The position numbers and the translations under genes are program-made. Under the pieces are notes generated by a model, which saw only the letters and a list, made by a program, of their open reading frames with translations, did no database searches and was not told the origin of the DNA. A DNA stretch of 64,000 nt from a phage, in assembly GCA_038450185.1 (NCBI GenBank), contig GCA_038450185.1_4765.1. The stretch is one strand, 5' to 3'. Position 1 is the first letter of the stretch. Every line of letters begins with the position of its first letter. Shown here in pieces: positions 18,175-25,124 of the stretch.

Positions 18175-20418
18175 TTACAGCTTGCAAGATGAGCACTCGC
18201 TAGCGTCTTCCGTACCATCTGCACCGTCGCGAACGTTCGCATAATACAGGGTTTTCAGACCGTAATATTGAGCAAACAACATATCATCTAACACATCAGC
18301 AATATCGACTTTACCAGTCTTATAAGTGCTTGGATCATAGGATGTATTGGAACTAATCGCCTGATCTACAAACTTCTGCATGATCGCTGCCAGTGTCAGA
18401 TAGGGCTTGTTACCTTTCTTGATCAGTGTCCAAAGCAGGTCAATAACATCAGCATTATTCTCTACGTTCGGAATAACCTGATTAAATTGCCCTTCTTTCG
18501 ATCCTTTAACCGATACAATCCCGCGAGGCGGTTCAATACCGTTTGTGCTGTTAGATACCTGAGAAGACGACTCACAAGGCATCAGAGCCGAAAGCGTACT
18601 ATTACGAATGCCATATTTTTTCAGGTCTTCGCGCAGTTCTTCCCAATCCATCTCATACACAGGATCAACCAGTTCATCTACTGTCTTTTTGTACCAGTCG
18701 ATAGGCAGTTCACCGCGTCCATAACGTGTTTCGTGCATCAGTTCGCAAGCACCCTTCTCTTTAGCCAGTTGCACACTAGCCTTAATCAGAGCATATTGCA
18801 AGCGTTCAAACGTTTTATGCGTAAACTCGTTAGCGTCTTCATATGTGAAGAAATTATCCGCTAGATATGACGCAAAGTTAGTAACACCAACACCCAGAGA
18901 GCGACGTTTTTTGGCTGTCAGAGCTTGTTCTACAGGATAATCCTGATAATCTAACAGGTTGTCAAGTGCACGCACCATAACCATAGCAATGCGTTCTACT
19001 TCTTCCATGTTTTCGATATCGAAATTACCTAAAACATATGCTGCCAAAGTACATAGGCTGATCTCTGAATCATCACGCCCCATCGGTTTAGTAGGCAGAG
19101 CAATTTCACAACACAGGTTAGATTGTTTAATTGGTGCTACATTACGAATAAACGCCCCGTGATTGTTCATGTTGTCTGTGAATGTTGGGTAGATTCGACC
19201 AGTGTTAAAACGTTCAATTGCCACCGCTAAAAACAGGTCTTCGGCTTTAACACGAGTTTTACGAACACTCGGATCTTTTTCCAGTTTTTCGTAAAGCTGG
19301 CGGAAACCTTCCTCATCTCGGAAGTACAGATCCCACAACAAGCCACCTGCAACATCTGGACTAAACAGAGTAATGTAATCCCGTTTAAGGAATCGCTCTA
19401 CCATCAGGTTATTAATCTGTACGCCGTAGTCAAGATGGCGAATGCGGTTATCTTCCACGCCCTTATTGTTCTTTAACACAATCAGACTTTCAAACTCTAA
19501 ATGCCACATTGGGTAATAGAGAGTCGCCGCCCCGCCACGAATACCGCCTTGTGAGCATGACTTAACGGCAGTCTGAAAATGTTTCCAGAATGGGATAACG
19601 CCAGTATGACGAACTTCACCATGCCCGATCTTAGATCCTTCCGCGCGAATCATGCCAGCGTTGATACCGATACCAGCACGCTTGCTAATATACTTGATGA
19701 TTGCATTTGCTGTTTCGTTGATGCCCTGCAATGAGTCATCACTTTCAATCACCACACACGAACTAAATTGTCGTGTTGGAGTACGCACACCCGCCATAAT
19801 CGGAGTAGGCAGAGAGATTTGCTTATTCGCAACAGCATTATAAAAATCAATCACATGTTCAAGTCGATTTTCTGTCTCTTCTTGATGCAAACACATACCA
19901 ATCAGCATATACGCAAATTGCGGTGTTTCGATGATTTTCTTAGTGCTGCGATCCTGAACAAGATATTTCTCTTTTAACTGCATCGCACCAGCATAGGTCA
20001 TTTTAAAATCAAGTTTATGGTCGATGAATTTCTCCAGATATTCCACTTCTTCACGGGAATATTTTTGCAGAATTTCGCGATCATATTTTCCGGTTGCAAT
20101 ATTACGCTCAATATGGCTATAAAAATCAATAGGTTGGAATTGACCGTATACTGATTTACGAAGCGCGAACATTGCAAGGTTACTTGCTACATATTGATAA
20201 TCAGGCGTTTCTACAGTAATGTTATCTGCGGCGACCTTAATCAATACTTTCTGGATATCATTGGTAGACATACCTTCTGTCAGAAGTGGTTCAACCATAT
20301 CAAACAATTCATATGGATCAACGTTATGACCTTCGGCTGCCGCTTCCAGAATTTTCATTACTTTTTCTTTTTCAAACGGAACAGTCAGACCGGAAGACTT
20401 AACAACATTTTTAATCAT
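18175..20418 (-). CDS. nrdA: ribonucleotide reductase large subunit
   Basis: ORF track; 747 aa with ATP-cone N-terminus and C-terminal CSSCKL-type tail typical of class Ia NrdA. Confidence 0.9.
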   Translation of the reverse strand: MIKNVVKSSGLTVPFEKEKVMKILEAAAEGHNVDPYELFDMVEPLLTEGMSTNDIQKVLIKVAADNITVETPDYQYVASNLAMFALRKSVYGQFQPIDFYSHIERNIATGKYDREILQKYSREEVEYLEKFIDHKLDFKMTYAGAMQLKEKYLVQDRSTKKIIETPQFAYMLIGMCLHQEETENRLEHVIDFYNAVANKQISLPTPIMAGVRTPTRQFSSCVVIESDDSLQGINETANAIIKYISKRAGIGINAGMIRAEGSKIGHGEVRHTGVIPFWKHFQTAVKSCSQGGIRGGAATLYYPMWHLEFESLIVLKNNKGVEDNRIRHLDYGVQINNLMVERFLKRDYITLFSPDVAGGLLWDLYFRDEEGFRQLYEKLEKDPSVRKTRVKAEDLFLAVAIERFNTGRIYPTFTDNMNNHGAFIRNVAPIKQSNLCCEIALPTKPMGRDDSEISLCTLAAYVLGNFDIENMEEVERIAMVMVRALDNLLDYQDYPVEQALTAKKRRSLGVGVTNFASYLADNFFTYEDANEFTHKTFERLQYALIKASVQLAKEKGACELMHETRYGRGELPIDWYKKTVDELVDPVYEMDWEELREDLKKYGIRNSTLSALMPCESSSQVSNSTNGIEPPRGIVSVKGSKEGQFNQVIPNVENNADVIDLLWTLIKKGNKPYLTLAAIMQKFVDQAISSNTSYDPSTYKTGKVDIADVLDDMLFAQYYGLKTLYYANVRDGADGTEDASECSSCKL

Positions 20419-20466
20419 ATTACCTCACTTCATATTTTAGCAGGAACAAGTTTTATCCTCCATATT

Positions 20467-20482
20467 GGGGGCTTTCGCCCCC
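20467..20482 (-). other. GGGGGCGAAAGCCCCC hairpin directly after td stop
   Basis: Reads as GAAA-loop hairpin on the mRNA-sense (minus) strand. Confidence 0.4.
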
Positions 20483-20487
20483 TTTGT

Positions 20488-21723
20488 TTATACTGCCATT
20501 TGAGCGGTGATCGCTGGATGGCTTTGATAGTTGTGAATTTTAAAGTCTTTCGGAGTCTTTGTCAATACCTCATCTAAAGACTTAAATTCCGGCAACTCAA
20601 TTGTTGGTTTATCAAACGGAACACGGCTTAACTGTTCCATAACTTGATCAAAATGGTTTTTGTAAATGTGGCAATCCCCACACTGATAAACCAGTTCGCC
20701 AACTTCTAACCCGCAAATCTTCGCGATGATATGCGTTAACAGTGCATAGCTCGCTACGTTGAACGGATTCCCTAAAAAGAGATCATTCGAACGCATGAAA
20801 AATAAACAACTCAATTTGTTGTCGTTGGAAACATAAAACTGTACCATCGGATGACATACACCTAACACAGCATTATGCGTTTCCTGTACGTTCCATGAAT
20901 CAATGATAATACGACGACTATACGGATCATTCTTGATCATGTCAATAACTTTTTGTAACTGGTCTTCCCAAATCTTCGGGCGATAGACATATTCTTCATC
21001 GTCTTTAGTGCTTGATGTGTCTACGTCCATACTAGCAAAGATCGTGGTATCTGGTGCTAAAATATCCCCACCCAGATAATCACTATCAAGCAGATAACCG
21101 AAATAACCATCATCTACCCATTCCTGGAATCCCCACAAGCAATATGCATCATTAACAAAATTAGATTGAGTCTTCCAGTGATCGGCTACTAAGAATTGAT
21201 TATATTCAGAATCAAACTCTTCATAACGCATACCACGCCAGATAGCACATAAACGGTCTTCTGTTTCATTGGTTGGCGTAAAGTCTTCTACCCACGGGTG
21301 CTTAAATGTATGTGCATATTTGCTCTTAACTCGCTTAATTTTGATTTCACCGTGTGGATGAATCGGTTTGCGTCGCCACGCCATACCATACATATTGCCG
21401 ACATTATAACCATTGAATCGCAAGGGATTCTTTTCTTTCATATCAAGACAGTTGCCGCGCCAAATATCAAAGGCTTCCTCGTCAAACTTGCCGCGTGTAA
21501 TTTCCTGTAAGCGACGGCGGTCAAGTGATCCCTCCATAAACCATAGCAATTCGCCAATTACAGAGGCTGTAGCCATCTTTTTAGTGGTCAGTAAGGGGAA
21601 ACCCTTGCTTAAGTCAATTCGCATTTCTGCACCGAATTTAGAGAGCGTACCTACCCCCGTGCGGTCTTCACGAGGCCAGCCATTATCAAGAACATCACGC
21701 AACAGTTTCAAATATTCTTTCAT
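20488..21723 (-). CDS. td: thymidylate synthase with large internal insertion
   Basis: ORF track; N-terminal DRTGVGT and C-terminal SRRIIIDSWN, LGVCHPMVQFYV, NPFNVASYAL motifs flank an extra ~110-130 aa segment; continuous ORF. Confidence 0.8.
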   Translation of the reverse strand: MKEYLKLLRDVLDNGWPREDRTGVGTLSKFGAEMRIDLSKGFPLLTTKKMATASVIGELLWFMEGSLDRRRLQEITRGKFDEEAFDIWRGNCLDMKEKNPLRFNGYNVGNMYGMAWRRKPIHPHGEIKIKRVKSKYAHTFKHPWVEDFTPTNETEDRLCAIWRGMRYEEFDSEYNQFLVADHWKTQSNFVNDAYCLWGFQEWVDDGYFGYLLDSDYLGGDILAPDTTIFASMDVDTSSTKDDEEYVYRPKIWEDQLQKVIDMIKNDPYSRRIIIDSWNVQETHNAVLGVCHPMVQFYVSNDNKLSCLFFMRSNDLFLGNPFNVASYALLTHIIAKICGLEVGELVYQCGDCHIYKNHFDQVMEQLSRVPFDKPTIELPEFKSLDEVLTKTPKDFKIHNYQSHPAITAQMAV

Positions 21724-21958
21724 CCCACTTCCCCTTTTTCTTTGCTTTCTTACGCAGTTTTGCTACTGTCTCGCTAATGTTAATAAAAATATCGTCTGGA
21801 CCGAATACAGTAACAGGTCTTGATATATCGCTATTTTCTTGTACAGGAAACCATGACGCTTTCGATTCATCATAGAGATATTGCAACCCGTAAAGATCTT
21901 CTGCTACTGCGTAGTTTTCATGGGTTGCCGACCATAATCGAATAATACTGATTTTCAT
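21695..21958 (-). CDS. hypothetical protein
   Basis: ORF track 21695..21985 (GTG); first ATG at 21958 overlaps stop of upstream mini-ORF (TAATG). Confidence 0.35.
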   Translation of the reverse strand: MKISIIRLWSATHENYAVAEDLYGLQYLYDESKASWFPVQENSDISRPVTVFGPDDIFINISETVAKLRKKAKKKGKWDERIFETVA

Positions 21959-22050
21959 TATTGTTCCCGTCCGCAGTGTAAACACCGACTACCAGCAAAC
22001 ATCAAAGATTCACCACAATGTTTGCATTCATAATCTGTCAGAATTTTCAT
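21958..22050 (-). CDS. hypothetical 30-aa zinc-ribbon peptide (CxxC-x13-CxxC)
   Basis: Hand translation MKILTDYECKHCGESLMFAGSRCLHCGREQ; sits between frd stop and next ORF. Confidence 0.3.
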   Translation of the reverse strand: MKILTDYECKHCGESLMFAGSRCLHCGREQ

Positions 22051-22051
22051 G

Positions 22052-22621
22052 TTACGCCTTCTTACGTTCTAAAATTTGTTCGCTGATCAGGTAATCATCA
22101 AGGAAGTAATTATGTTCTTCTTTTGTTGCAAAGTCAAAATATAATTCCTGAATCATTTCCTTAGAGATACCAACATCATATTCGAACGGATCATTAATTC
22201 CTGCTCGTTGAACATACGTTAACACAATACGGTCCGCAAAGTCAACCGCTTTTTCAATCAGGGAAGGTCCGCCGATAACACTTACCAAACCTTGCGTTTT
22301 CTCTAGGGCTTTTAACAGATCCTTCAATTCAATTCCAGTATACACATCAGGTTGGTCGCCGTTTTTAGCTTTCGGTTCTGGCTTGTTGGTATCGGTGCTA
22401 ACAACCACATTCAAACGTCCCCAAAGTGCTTTAGGCAGACTTTCAAAGGTATTGCGTCCCATTACTACCGCAGAAAAATCAACCTCGCCAATAGTGCGGA
22501 TTTGAAAGTTTTCCATATCTTTTTTGATTGGACGACCCCACGGTAAACCGCCTTTAAAACCAAAAGCCCAATTTTCATCCGACATTTTAGTGTCACCAAT
22601 AGCAAATACACATTGAATCAT
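22052..22621 (-). CDS. frd: dihydrofolate reductase
   Basis: ORF track; GLPWGRPIKKDM and VIGGPSL motifs; adjacent to td as in T4. Confidence 0.75.
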   Translation of the reverse strand: MIQCVFAIGDTKMSDENWAFGFKGGLPWGRPIKKDMENFQIRTIGEVDFSAVVMGRNTFESLPKALWGRLNVVVSTDTNKPEPKAKNGDQPDVYTGIELKDLLKALEKTQGLVSVIGGPSLIEKAVDFADRIVLTYVQRAGINDPFEYDVGISKEMIQELYFDFATKEEHNYFLDDYLISEQILERKKA

Positions 22622-22997: not shown

Positions 22998-23025
22998 ATT
23001 ATACACTATTGCGTTACGCTGTCAA
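22998..23025 (-). promoter_or_regulatory. early promoter (TTGACA-16-TATAAT)
   Basis: Hexamers upstream of gene starting 22966. Confidence 0.5.
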
Positions 23026-24030
23026 CTCTTTTTCAAAAGTTTTTACGATATACATGATAGTGCTCAATTCAGACGGCGCGACTGTTTCTGTGTAGCCATC
23101 CGGCATATCTTCTTTTGAGATATAGGAAGTTTTACCTTTCATCGCTTCCTTGATCTTGTTCTCTAATTCTAAGATCTTTTGACCGTCTTGTAAAGTCAAT
23201 TCATAAAAGATCTCGTGGTCGAATTTAGATTTCGCTGATTGGTTTCTCATTCGTTCTTGTGTTGTTAAATTGGTTATTCCAAATTTGATTCCATAAAAAC
23301 ATGATTTTTTAATTAGTTTTTGAATGTATAGTGTTCCGTGTTTTAAAGTGTTGTATCCAAATCTAGCACAACTTGAACATCTATTTCCTGATAGAAACCC
23401 GTTAATTGTTGGTGTAAATGTATGACCATTACAACATTGCAATTTTAATTTTGTTGTATTTCCTTTCCATTCACCTATAAATCCATTGAATAGTATGTTT
23501 TCTTTATCAAAGATTGGTTTAATTCTAATAATATAGTCATCTTTGGGTATTGATTTTAATTCTTTCAGTTTTAACCGGTAGCATTCTTGGCAGCGTCTTC
23601 CATTTTTGAAATTGTTAATTGTTGGTGTAAATGTATGTCCATTACAACATTGTAGATTTAATTTTGTCGATGACCTTTTCCATTCACCTATAAATCCATT
23701 GAATAGTATGTTTTCTTTATCAAAGATTGGAGTTAACTTATGTAGATGTTCATCTTCCGAAAAAGATTTCATCCTTCCATTCTTTATGTCTGCACATTTA
23801 TGACAGCGATTTCCAGCGTTGAAATTGTTAATTGTTATTGTAAATGTATGACCATTACAACATTGCAATTTTAATTTTGTTGTATTTCCTTTCCATTCAC
23901 CTATAAATCCAATAAACTTTATATTTTCTTTAAAGAATGTTGGTTTTAATTCTTCGTAGTAATTCACTGGAGATTTTGAATTGTGAGCTTTTCTAACCCA
24001 TTCAATCTCATGTGCTTGACGTACTAACAT
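23014..24030 (-). CDS. triple zinc-finger repeat protein with C-terminal T5orf172 / GIY-YIG-like domain
   Basis: ORF track 23014..24075 trimmed to ATG 24030 with GGAGG SD; three ~70-aa repeats each carrying QCCNGHTFT...C..C; C-terminal FYGIKFGITNLTTQERMRNQ. Confidence 0.5.
   Translation of the reverse strand: MLVRQAHEIEWVRKAHNSKSPVNYYEELKPTFFKENIKFIGFIGEWKGNTTKLKLQCCNGHTFTITINNFNAGNRCHKCADIKNGRMKSFSEDEHLHKLTPIFDKENILFNGFIGEWKRSSTKLNLQCCNGHTFTPTINNFKNGRRCQECYRLKLKELKSIPKDDYIIRIKPIFDKENILFNGFIGEWKGNTTKLKLQCCNGHTFTPTINGFLSGNRCSSCARFGYNTLKHGTLYIQKLIKKSCFYGIKFGITNLTTQERMRNQSAKSKFDHEIFYELTLQDGQKILELENKIKEAMKGKTSYISKEDMPDGYTETVAPSELSTIMYIVKTFEKELTA
23370..23935 (-). repeat. three in-frame tandem repeats of ~210 bp inside CDS 23014..24030
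   Basis: Near-identical nucleotide blocks visible three times in this span, encoding the zinc-finger units. Confidence 0.6.
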
Positions 24031-24060
24031 AATTTTATCCTCCGTTGTTTCTATGGGTGC

Positions 24061-24089
24061 ATTATACATTACCACATCAGCATGTCAAT
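24061..24089 (-). promoter_or_regulatory. early promoter (TTGACA-17-TATAAT)
   Basis: Hexamers upstream of gene starting 24030. Confidence 0.5.
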
Positions 24090-24149: not shown

Positions 24150-25124
24150 TTACATCCCTAACAGAGCGTCAAGATCATCCAGATCAGAAGCGGAGGAAGT
24201 ACCGCCACCCAGGTCCAGAGATGCCATCAGGTCATCAGCGGAAGAATCTAACGCCGTGCTAGCTGCGTTAATACCAACTACAGTGCTAGCTGCGGTCATA
24301 CCAGAATCGAATGCATTCATCTGTGCGTCAAAATCGTCAAGCTGGCTGTTAATCGCTGCCGCAGCACTGGAAGCCGCAGCACCAGCTACCATAGAAACGC
24401 CCATAGTTTTCTTAAATTTGGTTTCCAGTTCATCGAACGGTTTAAACTGGCTAGGCGCTACAATCTCACTCAGATCAACCATGTTTTCCATCAGATATTT
24501 CTGATATGCTTCGTCTTCAATTTTCGGAAGCTGTGATTGCTGCATGAAACGAGAATCATCATAGTTCTGGTGTTTATCAACCTTCTTAGCTTTCAGGAGG
24601 AAGTTAGCACCGGAGAACACACAAGTTACATCGACCGGAACTTCGCCCATGTCGGTATTCACGTTCACCATTGCAACGATCTTATCATAAATTTTCTGAC
24701 CGAAGCGGAATTTGAATACCTTACCTTCATTTTCTGGTGCTTGAGGATCTTTCAGTACCAGAATATTTGCGTAGTAAGACGCTTTACGCTTAATCAGTTG
24801 CCATTCGGTTTTATCGGTATTGTACAAGTCTTTTTCGTTAATATATTTGCACACAGGGCAAGAATCAAAATCACCGTGGGTGCTAGAGCAGTTTTCCCAA
24901 TACCATTTGCCATTAACTTTGAAGGAATGGTTTACCAGTTTCACAATCGGCAGACCGTCTTCTGTCTTAGACGGCAGGAAGCGAATCAGGGCTTCACCGT
25001 TACCTGCTGCATCAGTCTTAATCTTCCACTCTTTCGGATCTTCTTTGGAGAAACCGTTGCCACCTTTCAGTGCGGCCAGTTGAGCTTGCAATTTGGAGCT
25101 ATCTTGACGACGAAACATGTTCAT
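24150..25124 (-). CDS. 32: single-stranded DNA-binding protein
   Basis: ORF track; strong similarity to recalled T4 gp32 ([36 protein letters not shown], acidic Ser/Asp-rich tail). Confidence 0.9.

What the first reader, a model, noticed from the sequence alone, without database searches (positions are those of the whole stretch)
20488..21723. Thymidylate synthase with ~110-130 aa internal insertion
The 411-aa ORF has intact TS motifs at both ends but roughly 110-130 extra residues between the conserved QWR-type region and the SRRII strand, compared with E. coli ThyA and T4 Td as I recall them. The ORF is continuous, so this is not a T4-style td intron, and the insert has no intein boundary signature. 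It sits at the position of the Lactobacillus-type small-domain insert but is about twice as long.
Basis: partly seen in the sequence, partly recalled or inferred. Interest (0 to 1): 0.5.

Follow-up and report, generated by a model that had tools for sequence, protein, structure and literature searches.

The report
Thymidylate synthase with endonuclease-derived insert
The thymidylate synthase of this RB49-like coliphage carries a folded 134-residue extra domain that is an eroded remnant of a homing-endonuclease-like gene module, inserted in frame into the enzyme with no intron or intein to remove it.

Summary
ORF 20488-21723 (-) is a continuous 411-aa ThyA/Td-type thymidylate synthase (TS). All catalytic residues are present, and 134 extra residues (119-252) lie between the QWR motif and the DQ helix. 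The same insert is in 59-65 Krischvirus genomes.

The placement is wrong. The L. casei site holds only a ~17-aa, T4-Td-like segment. The large insert starts after QWR.

The insert is neither an intron nor an intein. It is homologous to a module that forms the N-terminal body of small phage genes, often followed by AP2 or NUMOD-like DNA-binding domains. Those genes sit where homing endonuclease genes typically sit (nrdA|nrdB, beside or inside DNA polymerase genes, terS|terL).

Other phage TSs carry longer versions (up to 282 aa) at the same hairpin, in several TS lineages, which suggests site-specific mobility.

The window copy has lost both flanking submodules and the family's invariant R, K, Y, C and N residues. 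It is strongly acidic, yet it is predicted to fold confidently and is under purifying selection (omega ~0.2).

Best reading: a nuclease-dead, non-DNA-binding relic kept as a surface appendage of an active enzyme. No nuclease activity has been shown for any member of the family.

The parts
20488..21723 (-). td gene: 411-aa ThyA/Td-type thymidylate synthase (stop codon 20488-20490)
   Evidence: ORF list; PF00303 E 6.6e-84 end to end; annotated td / thymidylate synthase in RB49, JSE and Phi1
21370..21723 (-). N-terminal part of the TS core, residues 1-118, ending in GNMYGMAWRR (= LGPVYGKQWR)
   Evidence: Aligns to T4 Td 1-114 and E. coli ThyA 1-103; omega about 0.04 among 7 Krischvirus genes
21406..21459 (-). 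Small ~17-aa extra segment (residues 89-106, RGNCLDMKEKNPLRFNGY) at the L. casei small-domain site; shared with T4 Td
   Evidence: Gap against E. coli ThyA; aligned with only a 2-residue gap to T4 Td 1tis_A
20968..21369 (-). The large insert, residues 119-252 (134 aa): nested relic of a homing-endonuclease-like module
   Evidence: No counterpart in PDB TSs. tblastn to longer inserts in Klebsiella phage KP13-7 ThyA, E 2e-12. hhalign against the free-standing family: 94.3% probability, E 9.5e-8. Foldseek hits to free-standing phage proteins named homing endonuclease or DNA-binding protein.
21334..21369 (-). Stalk strand 1 (residues 119-130, KPIHPHGEIKIK), basic; conserved in all insert-bearing TSs (consensus xPxxPHGxxxIKR)
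   Evidence: AF2 strand E119-130; consensus of alignment A5
21025..21267 (-). Head of the insert (residues 153-233): helices 153-170, 181-193 and 199-204 plus hairpin 210-213/228-231. Homologous to the central W..M..R / W..F.NF / LDKD / YSP.TC.F module. Net charge -13.
   Evidence: AF2 pLDDT above 90 except about 76 at residues 171-180; alignments A2 and A3; charge
21079..21090 (-). LDSD (residues 212-215): eroded form of the family's invariant LDKD motif
   Evidence: Motif table: LDKD is kept in 13 of 14 TS inserts of 199 aa or more and lost in all 10 of 178 aa or less; D-K-D is invariant in 9 free-standing proteins
21199..21210 (-). SEYN (residues 172-175): 4-codon in-frame indel polymorphism among Krischvirus genomes, at the place where the R-C-Y segment of the module has been lost
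   Evidence: Absent in JSE, Phi1 and G2248; lowest pLDDT of the insert
20965..20991 (-). Stalk strand 2 (residues 245-253, YVYRPKIWE), returning to the TS core before the DQLQ helix
   Evidence: AF2 strand E245-253; consensus VxRPxIx in all insert-bearing TSs
20491..20967 (-). C-terminal part of the TS core, residues 253-411, with the catalytic Cys290 (20854-20856)
   Evidence: Aligns to E. coli ThyA 110-264 and L. casei 162-316
20674..20967 (-). Mosaic tract (codons 253-350): one of two highly divergent alleles of the catalytic middle of td circulating in Krischvirus
   Evidence: dN 0.21 and saturated dS between allele groups, while the flanks differ by a few per cent

Best explanation
The gene encodes a working ThyA/Td-type thymidylate synthase. 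The surface beta-hairpin just after the QWR motif is extended into a two-stranded stalk (residues 119-130 and 245-253), which carries a compact, mostly helical head (about residues 153-233). This 134-residue insert is a truncated, eroded descendant of a module that elsewhere forms the N-terminal body of small phage proteins of 160-390 aa. Those proteins often carry an AP2 or NUMOD-like DNA-binding tail, and their genes occupy the typical positions of homing endonuclease genes. An ancestor of this TS clade was invaded in frame by a full module of about 245 aa with three parts: an N-terminal beta submodule ending in GVGY.G, the central LDKD submodule, and a C-terminal DNA-binding submodule. No intron or intein is involved, so the module is simply translated as part of the enzyme and held away from the core on its own stalk. 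In the Krischvirus lineage both outer submodules were deleted. The residues that are invariant in free-standing members (R, K of LDKD, Y, C, N) were replaced, and the surface became strongly acidic. The copy in this window is therefore most likely neither a nuclease nor a DNA binder. It persists as a folded appendage because an exact in-frame deletion is rare and a misfolded insert would harm an essential enzyme; it may also have been co-opted as a protein-protein contact surface. SHOWN: the TS identity, the position of the insert, its homology to the free-standing family, the graded series of insert lengths, the loss of conserved residues, the acidity, the confident predicted fold, and purifying selection. 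INFERRED: that the ancestral module was a nuclease, that it spread by homing, and what the relic does now.
For: TS identity and intact catalytic residues.

Position after QWR.

Homology chain:
- Window insert to the KP13-7 ThyA insert by tblastn, E 2e-12.
- KP13-7 and D69 inserts to PHROG 2081, 953 and 374 'HNH endonuclease', E 1e-32 to 1e-13.
- KP13-7 insert to 1445 phage records.
- Direct profile-profile match of the six short inserts against nine free-standing proteins: probability 94.3%, E 9.5e-8.
- Foldseek of the insert model alone finds TSs with inserts and free-standing phage proteins named homing endonuclease or DNA-binding protein, E 4e-6 to 1e-2.

HEG-type contexts of free-standing members:
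- Between nrdA and nrdB.
- After DNA polymerase.
- Between two DNA polymerase CDS pieces.
- Between primase and polymerase.
- Between terS and terL.
- Two genes upstream of a TS.

Partner domains: PF00847 AP2 in many family members; I-HmuI NUMOD-like PF22083 in one TS insert, E 2.9e-7.

Graded series: insert lengths of 126-282 aa with stepwise loss of submodules and motifs.

Mobility or repeated gain:
- Clade A of insert-bearing TSs has 83/100 bootstrap support, but the other insert-bearing TSs are scattered among insert-less ones.
- All insert-bearing TSs were monophyletic in 0/100 bootstraps.
- P0045 (282-aa insert) is 82% identical in core to insert-less P0105, and the two lie in syntenic contigs.

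Erosion in the window copy: R, K, Y, C and N are lost. Net charge is -11 (head -13, pI 4.05), against pI 8-9.6 for most full-length and free-standing versions.

Still folded and constrained:
- AF2 pLDDT 95.5 and pTM 0.93 for the whole protein; pLDDT 92 for the insert alone.
- Omega about 0.21 in the insert against 0.04 in the N-core.
- 18 synonymous against 20 nonsynonymous state changes where 81% nonsynonymous is expected under neutrality, p = 8e-5.
Against: - No member of the free-standing family has a recognised nuclease domain (Pfam and NCBIfam give nothing except AP2 and NUMOD-like). I know of no member that has been tested. 'Homing endonuclease' therefore rests on database names, gene positions, partner domains and patchy distribution.
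- Omega of about 0.2 shows the insert is not junk. It may have a present function that I cannot identify.
- The trees are neighbour-joining on 271 columns. A scattered distribution could also arise from several exact losses, or from recombination between TS genes.
Confidence: 0.7

Rival explanations
1. The insert is now a functional, co-opted domain. The acidic head on its stalk could be a docking surface for partners of Td (for example the T4-type dNTP-synthesising complex or DHFR), or a regulatory or decoy surface. Its endonuclease ancestry would then be only history.
For: Purifying selection on the insert (omega about 0.2, p = 8e-5). 49-57% identity retained in relatives whose core is 61-72% identical. 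Confident, rigid predicted fold (pTM 0.93). A marked change of surface charge to -13, which looks like a new surface rather than random decay.
Against: Selection is about five times weaker than on the neighbouring TS core. A 4-codon indel is polymorphic inside the insert. Related clades have shrunk the insert in different ways. No partner or motif has been identified. Selection against misfolding alone could give omega of 0.2.
Confidence: 0.3
2. The insert is still an active site-specific endonuclease or DNA-binding domain that drives homing of this td allele, or protects it from related endonucleases.
For: It is homologous to a family found in HEG-type positions. Krischvirus td shows a gene-conversion-like mosaic tract just downstream of the insert.
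Against: Five residues invariant in nine free-standing members are replaced. Both flanking DNA-binding-type submodules are deleted. The head is strongly acidic, pI 4.05. The insert is fixed in all 59-65 Krischvirus genomes found, so there is no empty site left to home into.
Confidence: 0.05
3. The insert is an intein (mini-intein or HNH-containing intein), or an untranslated intron or bypass element, that is removed to give a normal-sized Td.
For: TS genes are known hosts of introns (T4 td), and phage ThyX genes host inteins (bioRxiv 10.1101/2025.01.02.630785). The insert is in frame and nested.
Against: No Hint, intein or LAGLIDADG Pfam hit in the window protein or in 26 relatives. No C/S/T ... 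HN-C/S/T junctions. The predicted fold is a stalk plus helical head continuous with the TS hairpin, not a Hint fold. No Rfam intron was found. Codon-level purifying selection shows that it is translated.
Confidence: 0.02
4. The insert is an enlarged version of the Lactobacillus-type small domain of TS.
For: Both are insertions in the first half of TS, near the folate-binding side.
Against: The site differs: the L. casei alignment breaks at query residue 88, while the large insert begins at residue 119, after the QWR motif. There is no sequence similarity to any PDB chain, L. casei TS included. There is clear homology to a non-TS gene family.
Confidence: 0.02

Closest known systems
Phage T4 Td (PDB 1TIS) and E. 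coli ThyA
   Same: Same enzyme family and same catalytic residues. The gene order is as in T4 (gp32 ... frd - td - nrdA). The small segment at residues 89-106 is shared with T4 Td.
   Different: T4 Td (286 aa) and ThyA (264 aa) have a short loop where this protein has a 134-aa nested domain.
L. casei / S. aureus TS with the 50-aa 'small domain' insert
   Same: A TS that tolerates a sizeable surface insertion.
   Different: Different insertion site (before LGxVYG rather than after QWR), unrelated sequence, and no link to a mobile gene family.
T4 td group I intron carrying I-TevI
   Same: The same host gene is colonised by an endonuclease-type selfish element.
   Different: In T4 the element is removed at the RNA level and sits elsewhere in td. 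Here there is no intron and the element is translated into the enzyme.
Inteins with nested homing endonuclease domains (including HNH-type inteins of phages)
   Same: In-frame insertion of an endonuclease-type module into a conserved enzyme, with later decay of the endonuclease part (as in mini-inteins).
   Different: No protein-splicing (Hint) domain and no splice junctions. The module stays in the mature protein, on its own beta-stalk.
Free-standing phage proteins of PHROG 953 / 2081 / 374, annotated 'HNH endonuclease' and often carrying an AP2 (PF00847) or I-HmuI NUMOD-like tail
   Same: Homologous central module. The full-length TS inserts share all three submodules with them.
   Different: Those are separate genes of 160-390 aa, basic, with invariant R, DKD, Y, C and N. 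The window copy is nested, truncated, acidic and has lost those residues. Their own biochemical activity is untested as far as I know.
Aeromonas phage Aeh1 nrdA split by mobE; domesticated HEG domains such as PLE CapR and ICP1 Odn (from my own knowledge of the literature, not checked here)
   Same: Other ways in which free-standing endonuclease genes end up inside host genes or are co-opted by them.
   Different: In Aeh1 the host gene is split into two polypeptides. CapR and Odn are separate proteins. Here host and element form a single polypeptide.

Membership tests
ThyA/Td thymidylate synthase (PF00303) | Full-length match to the family profile | tested here: met
   PF00303 positions 1-266 of 266, E 6.6e-84; TIGR03284 277 bits against a cut-off of 108; PDB TS hits at E 1e-66
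ThyA/Td thymidylate synthase (PF00303) | Catalytic Cys (E. coli C146) and the phosphate- and dUMP-binding residues R21, R126/R127, R166, S167, D169, H207, Y209 | tested here: met
   R21, R270/R271, C290-H291, R311, S312, D314, H352 and Y354 all fall in invariant or nearly invariant columns of 74 TSs
ThyA/Td thymidylate synthase (PF00303) | Asn at the E. coli N177 position (dUMP specificity, as opposed to Asp in dCMP hydroxymethylases) | tested here: met
   N322 is in an invariant column. The specificity rule itself is established knowledge.
ThyA/Td thymidylate synthase (PF00303) | Enzymatic activity | not testable with these tools
   Needs a thyA complementation test or an enzyme assay
Intein | Hint splicing domain | tested here: not met
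Intein | C/S/T at the N-junction and HN followed by C/S/T at the C-junction | tested here: not met
   The junctions read WRR|KPIHP and RPKIW|EDQ; there is no HN[CST] in the protein
Group I intron (T4 td type) | Ribozyme structure interrupting the reading frame | tested here: not met
   Continuous ORF; no Rfam match at E up to 1 in 20300-22100
L. casei-type TS small domain | Insertion between the W80/W83 helix and the LGxVYG motif | tested here: not met
   Only about 17 aa lie at that site; the large insert begins after QWR
Phage free-standing 'LDKD' module family (PHROG 953/2081/374) | Detectable homology of the central module | tested here: met
   hhalign 94.3%, E 9.5e-8; tblastn chain; Foldseek BFVD; PHROG 2081 directly only at E 0.11
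Phage free-standing 'LDKD' module family (PHROG 953/2081/374) | Invariant residues W, M, R, Y, V, W, D-K-D, G, Y, C, N | tested here: not met
   The window copy keeps W162, M165, W183, D213, D215 and G218 but has lost R, K (LDSD), Y (ILAP), C (DTTIF) and N
Phage free-standing 'LDKD' module family (PHROG 953/2081/374) | Attached DNA-binding submodules (N-terminal GVGY.G beta module; C-terminal AP2 / NUMOD-like) | tested here: not met
   Both are absent from the window insert but present in TS inserts of 244 aa or more
HNH (beta-beta-alpha-metal) endonuclease | HNH profile match, with the catalytic His and the Asn/His metal ligands | tested here: not met
   No HNH-family Pfam hit for the insert, the full-length inserts or the free-standing members; there is no conserved His in the module
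HNH (beta-beta-alpha-metal) endonuclease | Beta-beta-alpha fold | tested here: inconclusive
Homing endonuclease gene (functional definition) | Site-specific cleavage of the empty allele and copying into it | not testable with these tools
   Only indirect support: HEG-type gene positions, and the same insertion site in non-sister TS lineages

The most novel reading that the evidence does not exclude
The full-length versions of this insert (244-282 aa, for example in Klebsiella jumbo phage KP13-7 ThyA and metagenomic TSs P0045, P0050 and P0054) would be active members of an undescribed lifestyle of selfish element. This would be a homing endonuclease that invades a conserved enzyme gene in frame and is neither spliced out as RNA nor as protein. 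It would ride as a stalk-mounted domain of the host enzyme and use a nuclease core (the W..M..R / LDKD / YSP.C / N module) that matches no curated nuclease family. The Krischvirus Td in this window would be the fossil end-stage of that life cycle.
Probability: 0.3. Interest if true: 0.85.

Novelty: new variant of a known kind. Interest (0 to 1): 0.6.

Why it matters
Homing endonuclease genes are thought to survive inside essential genes only by hiding in self-splicing introns or inteins, or by sitting between genes. This case suggests a third route: translation straight into the host enzyme as an extra domain at a tolerant surface hairpin.

The phage TS family preserves a graded series from apparently complete modules to the eroded stump seen in RB49-like phages. 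That makes the invasion, fixation and decay cycle directly observable and testable.

It also bears on three practical points:
- It flags a very widespread phage gene family (more than 1,400 phage genomes) whose 'HNH endonuclease' label has no detectable HNH motif behind it.
- It explains a length anomaly in the td gene of a well-studied phage group.
- It identifies a permissive site for domain insertion in thymidylate synthase.

Tried and rejected
- Word-indexed protein search with the insert alone found nothing. The exhaustive HMMER scan recovered only TSs with inserts, plus one low-complexity false positive, P0011.
- Pfam, NCBIfam and PDB sequence searches of the insert gave nothing.
- I tested whether the 313-aa gene between DHFR and TS in the insert-less contig L019 is a free-standing copy of the module. 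It is not (no similarity).
- Literature searches for a described TS insertion or an in-frame HEG in td found nothing relevant. The RB49 genome paper is not held.
- Intein, intron, artefact and L. casei-domain readings were rejected, as detailed under the rival explanations.
- I could not measure where the head sits relative to the active site or the dimer interface, because model coordinates are not exposed to the scripting tool.

Full report
**What the window is.** The region reads gp32 (24150-25124), a 353-aa ORF, a 120-aa ORF, frd/DHFR (22052-22621), a 96-aa ORF, the 411-aa ORF (20488-21723) and nrdA (18175-20418), all on the minus strand. That is the T4-type frd-td-nrdA arrangement. The 1236-bp ORF matches 59 phage genomes at 80-99% identity over its whole length. 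All are RB49-like coliphages and Shigella phages (Krischvirus), with vB_EcoM_Skers the best at 99.4%. The gene is annotated td or thymidylate synthase in them.

**Checking the observation.** The ORF is continuous and matches Pfam PF00303 from profile position 1 to 266 (E 6.6e-84). Solved TS structures align as two blocks, query 3-88 and query 254-411. With the N-terminal 131 residues alone, T4 Td (1tis_A) aligns from 1 to 114 against query 1-117. That stretch runs through the motif GNMYGMAWR = GPIYGKQWR.

There are therefore two extra pieces relative to E. coli ThyA. One is a ~17-aa segment (residues 89-106) at the site where L. casei TS has its small domain; T4 Td shares this segment. The other is a 134-aa insert (residues 119-252) after the QWR motif and before the DQLQ helix. 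Insert-less TSs have 10-33 residues at that second site.

All catalytic and substrate-binding residues fall in invariant columns of a 74-sequence TS alignment. The statement that the insert sits at the Lactobacillus position is not.

**Not an intron, intein or artefact.**
- The frame is open in every Krischvirus genome.
- Rfam finds nothing in 20300-22100.
- There is no Hint/intein domain in this protein or in 26 relatives, and no HN[CST] junction.
- Substitutions among seven Krischvirus td genes show codon-level purifying selection inside the insert, so it is translated.

**What the insert is related to.** On its own the insert hits no Pfam or PDB entry, and only weakly hits PHROG 2081 'HNH endonuclease' (E 0.11).

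tblastn against phage genomes finds the same region, in longer form, in two other TS genes. One is the thyA of the Klebsiella jumbo phage KP13-7 (517 aa, E 2e-12). The other is a TS-like gene of Vibrio phage D69 (477 aa, mis-annotated 'HNH endonuclease'). It also gives weak hits to small free-standing genes.

The KP13-7 and D69 inserts hit PHROGs 2081, 953 and 374 at E 1e-32 to 1e-13. The KP13-7 insert finds homologues in 1445 phage records.

A direct profile-profile comparison of the six short (Krischvirus-type) inserts against nine free-standing proteins gives 94.3% probability, E 9.5e-8, over 74 columns. The AF2 model of the insert alone retrieves, from predicted viral structures, TSs with inserts and free-standing proteins named HNH/HTH homing endonuclease or DNA-binding protein (E 4e-6 to 1e-2).

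**The free-standing family.** Its genes lie in these positions:
- between nrdA and nrdB (VEcB);
- directly after DNA polymerase (ICP1 gp59 and SD2);
- between two DNA polymerase CDS pieces (Lactobacillus phage Semele);
- between primase and polymerase;
- between terS and terL;
- two genes upstream of a TS.

These are the classical positions of homing endonuclease genes.

A profile search returns 282 proteins, mostly 180-260 aa. Their only precomputed Pfam domain is AP2 (PF00847). One Bacillus phage member and one TS insert carry an I-HmuI NUMOD-like domain.

The module sits where AP2- or NUMOD-linked endonucleases have their catalytic domain. That it is a nuclease is an inference, not a result.

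**A graded series inside thymidylate synthases.** An exhaustive HMMER scan of 1.84 billion representatives found 11 clusters of TS with this insert. A full-length search added more. Insert lengths run from 126 to 282 aa.

The long forms have three parts:
- an N-terminal beta submodule ending in GVGY.G;
- the central W..M..R(C)Y / VC..W..F.NF / LDKD / YSP.TC.F / N submodule;
- a C-terminal submodule.

All forms share the two stalk strands (xPxxPHGxxxIKR and VxRPxI), so the stalk came with the element.

LDKD is present in 13 of 14 inserts of 199 aa or more. It is absent from all 10 inserts of 178 aa or less, and the replacements differ between lineages: LDSD, LDCD, LTQK, LSCD/LSCK, LSLV, LDKN, LNKS and LDAE.

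**Gain or loss in several TS lineages.** On a core-only tree (271 columns with the insert removed), the Krischvirus TS belongs to a clade of 20 TSs that all carry the insert (83/100 bootstraps). Within that clade, shortening happened at least three separate times.

Seven further insert-bearing TSs are scattered among ordinary TSs. Monophyly of all insert-bearing TSs was recovered in 0 of 100 bootstraps.

P0045 (282-aa insert) is 82% identical in core to insert-less P0105. The two genes lie in collinear metagenomic phage contigs that share more than 11 orthologues.

The same hairpin has therefore gained, or exactly lost, the element more than once. This is the pattern expected of a site-specific mobile element.

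**State of the copy in this window.** It keeps only the stalk and the central submodule. It has replaced the invariant R, K, Y, C and N.

It carries a 4-codon indel polymorphism (SEYN, residues 172-175) where the R-C-Y segment used to be. This is also the only part of the insert predicted with lower confidence.

Its net charge is -11 (head -13, pI 4.05). Full-length TS inserts and free-standing proteins are mostly basic, pI 8-9.6.

It is nevertheless predicted with high confidence, both within the whole protein (pLDDT 95.5, pTM 0.93) and alone (pLDDT 92).

It evolves under purifying selection. Omega is about 0.21, against 0.04 for the adjacent core. There are 18 synonymous and 20 nonsynonymous state changes where 81% nonsynonymous is expected under neutrality (p = 8e-5).

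In relatives whose core is 61-72% identical, the insert is still 49-57% identical.

**Interpretation.** The enzyme is most likely a normal dTMP synthase. The insert is most likely a nuclease-dead, non-DNA-binding remnant of an in-frame invasion by a homing-endonuclease-like module. It is held on its own stalk at a tolerant hairpin.

It is retained because exact excision is improbable and because its folding matters to an essential enzyme. A secondary, co-opted role (for example as an acidic docking surface) is possible, and I rate it at about 0.3.

The more novel possibility concerns the long versions in other phages. They may be active endonucleases that spread without an intron or an intein and use an unrecognised catalytic core. 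My evidence does not exclude this, and I rate it at about 0.3.

I found no description of this insert or of this mode of insertion in the searchable literature. That is not proof that none exists.

**Verdict.** The feature is real. Novelty: a new variant of a known kind, namely a thymidylate synthase with a nested, decayed endonuclease-type module. Interest 0.6.

Noticed in passing
window 20674-20967 (- strand; td codons 253-350): The catalytic middle of td exists as two very divergent alleles among Krischvirus genomes: the window/JSE/KFS-EC type and the RB49/Phi1/G2248/SSG23 type. Between them there are about 42 nonsynonymous and 45 synonymous differences in 98 codons, with dS saturated, while the rest of the gene differs by a few per cent. 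It looks like a recombination or gene-conversion tract that begins right at the downstream edge of the insert.
   Followed up: partly
window 23014-24075 (- strand): A 353-aa ORF between gp32 and frd, lying in the lowest-GC kilobase of the window (GC 0.31 for 23001-24000). It contains three tandem CapR-homology / zinc-ribbon repeats (PF21817, E 1e-22). That DNA-binding repeat is known from endonuclease-derived proteins of ICP1 and PLE. It is probably a free-standing homing-endonuclease-like gene near td.
   Followed up: partly
L001 2641-4074 (Vibrio phage D69); also P0003, P0006, P0007, P0010: A second group of insert-bearing TS-like proteins (448-518 aa) has altered core motifs: TRSG instead of DRTGTGT, SRY instead of SRR, and a C-terminal LSVG. 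D69's copy is annotated 'HNH endonuclease' in GenBank. They keep the catalytic Cys and Asn, so they may be TS paralogues with a changed activity.
   Followed up: no
window 21695-21985 (- strand): A 96-aa ORF whose end overlaps the td start by 29 nt. It is conserved and annotated as a hypothetical protein (RB49ORF236c) in RB49, JSE, Phi1 and others. It has no Pfam match.
   Followed up: no
L014 1453-2424 (Lactobacillus phage Semele): A 323-aa member of the free-standing family lies between two CDSs that are both annotated DNA polymerase. It is therefore probably intron-encoded or splits the gene. It begins directly with the central module and has no other recognisable catalytic domain. This makes it a good candidate for testing whether the module is a nuclease.
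   Followed up: partly
L019 4051-4992 versus L018: In the insert-less relative, a 313-aa gene with a zinc-ribbon-like N-terminus and a C-terminal membrane anchor sits between DHFR and TS. It is absent from the contig whose TS carries the insert. It is unrelated to the insert.
   Followed up: yes
window 21199-21210 (- strand; td codons 172-175): In-frame 12-nt indel polymorphism (SEYN present or absent) within the insert among otherwise 91-99% identical Krischvirus td genes.
   Followed up: yes
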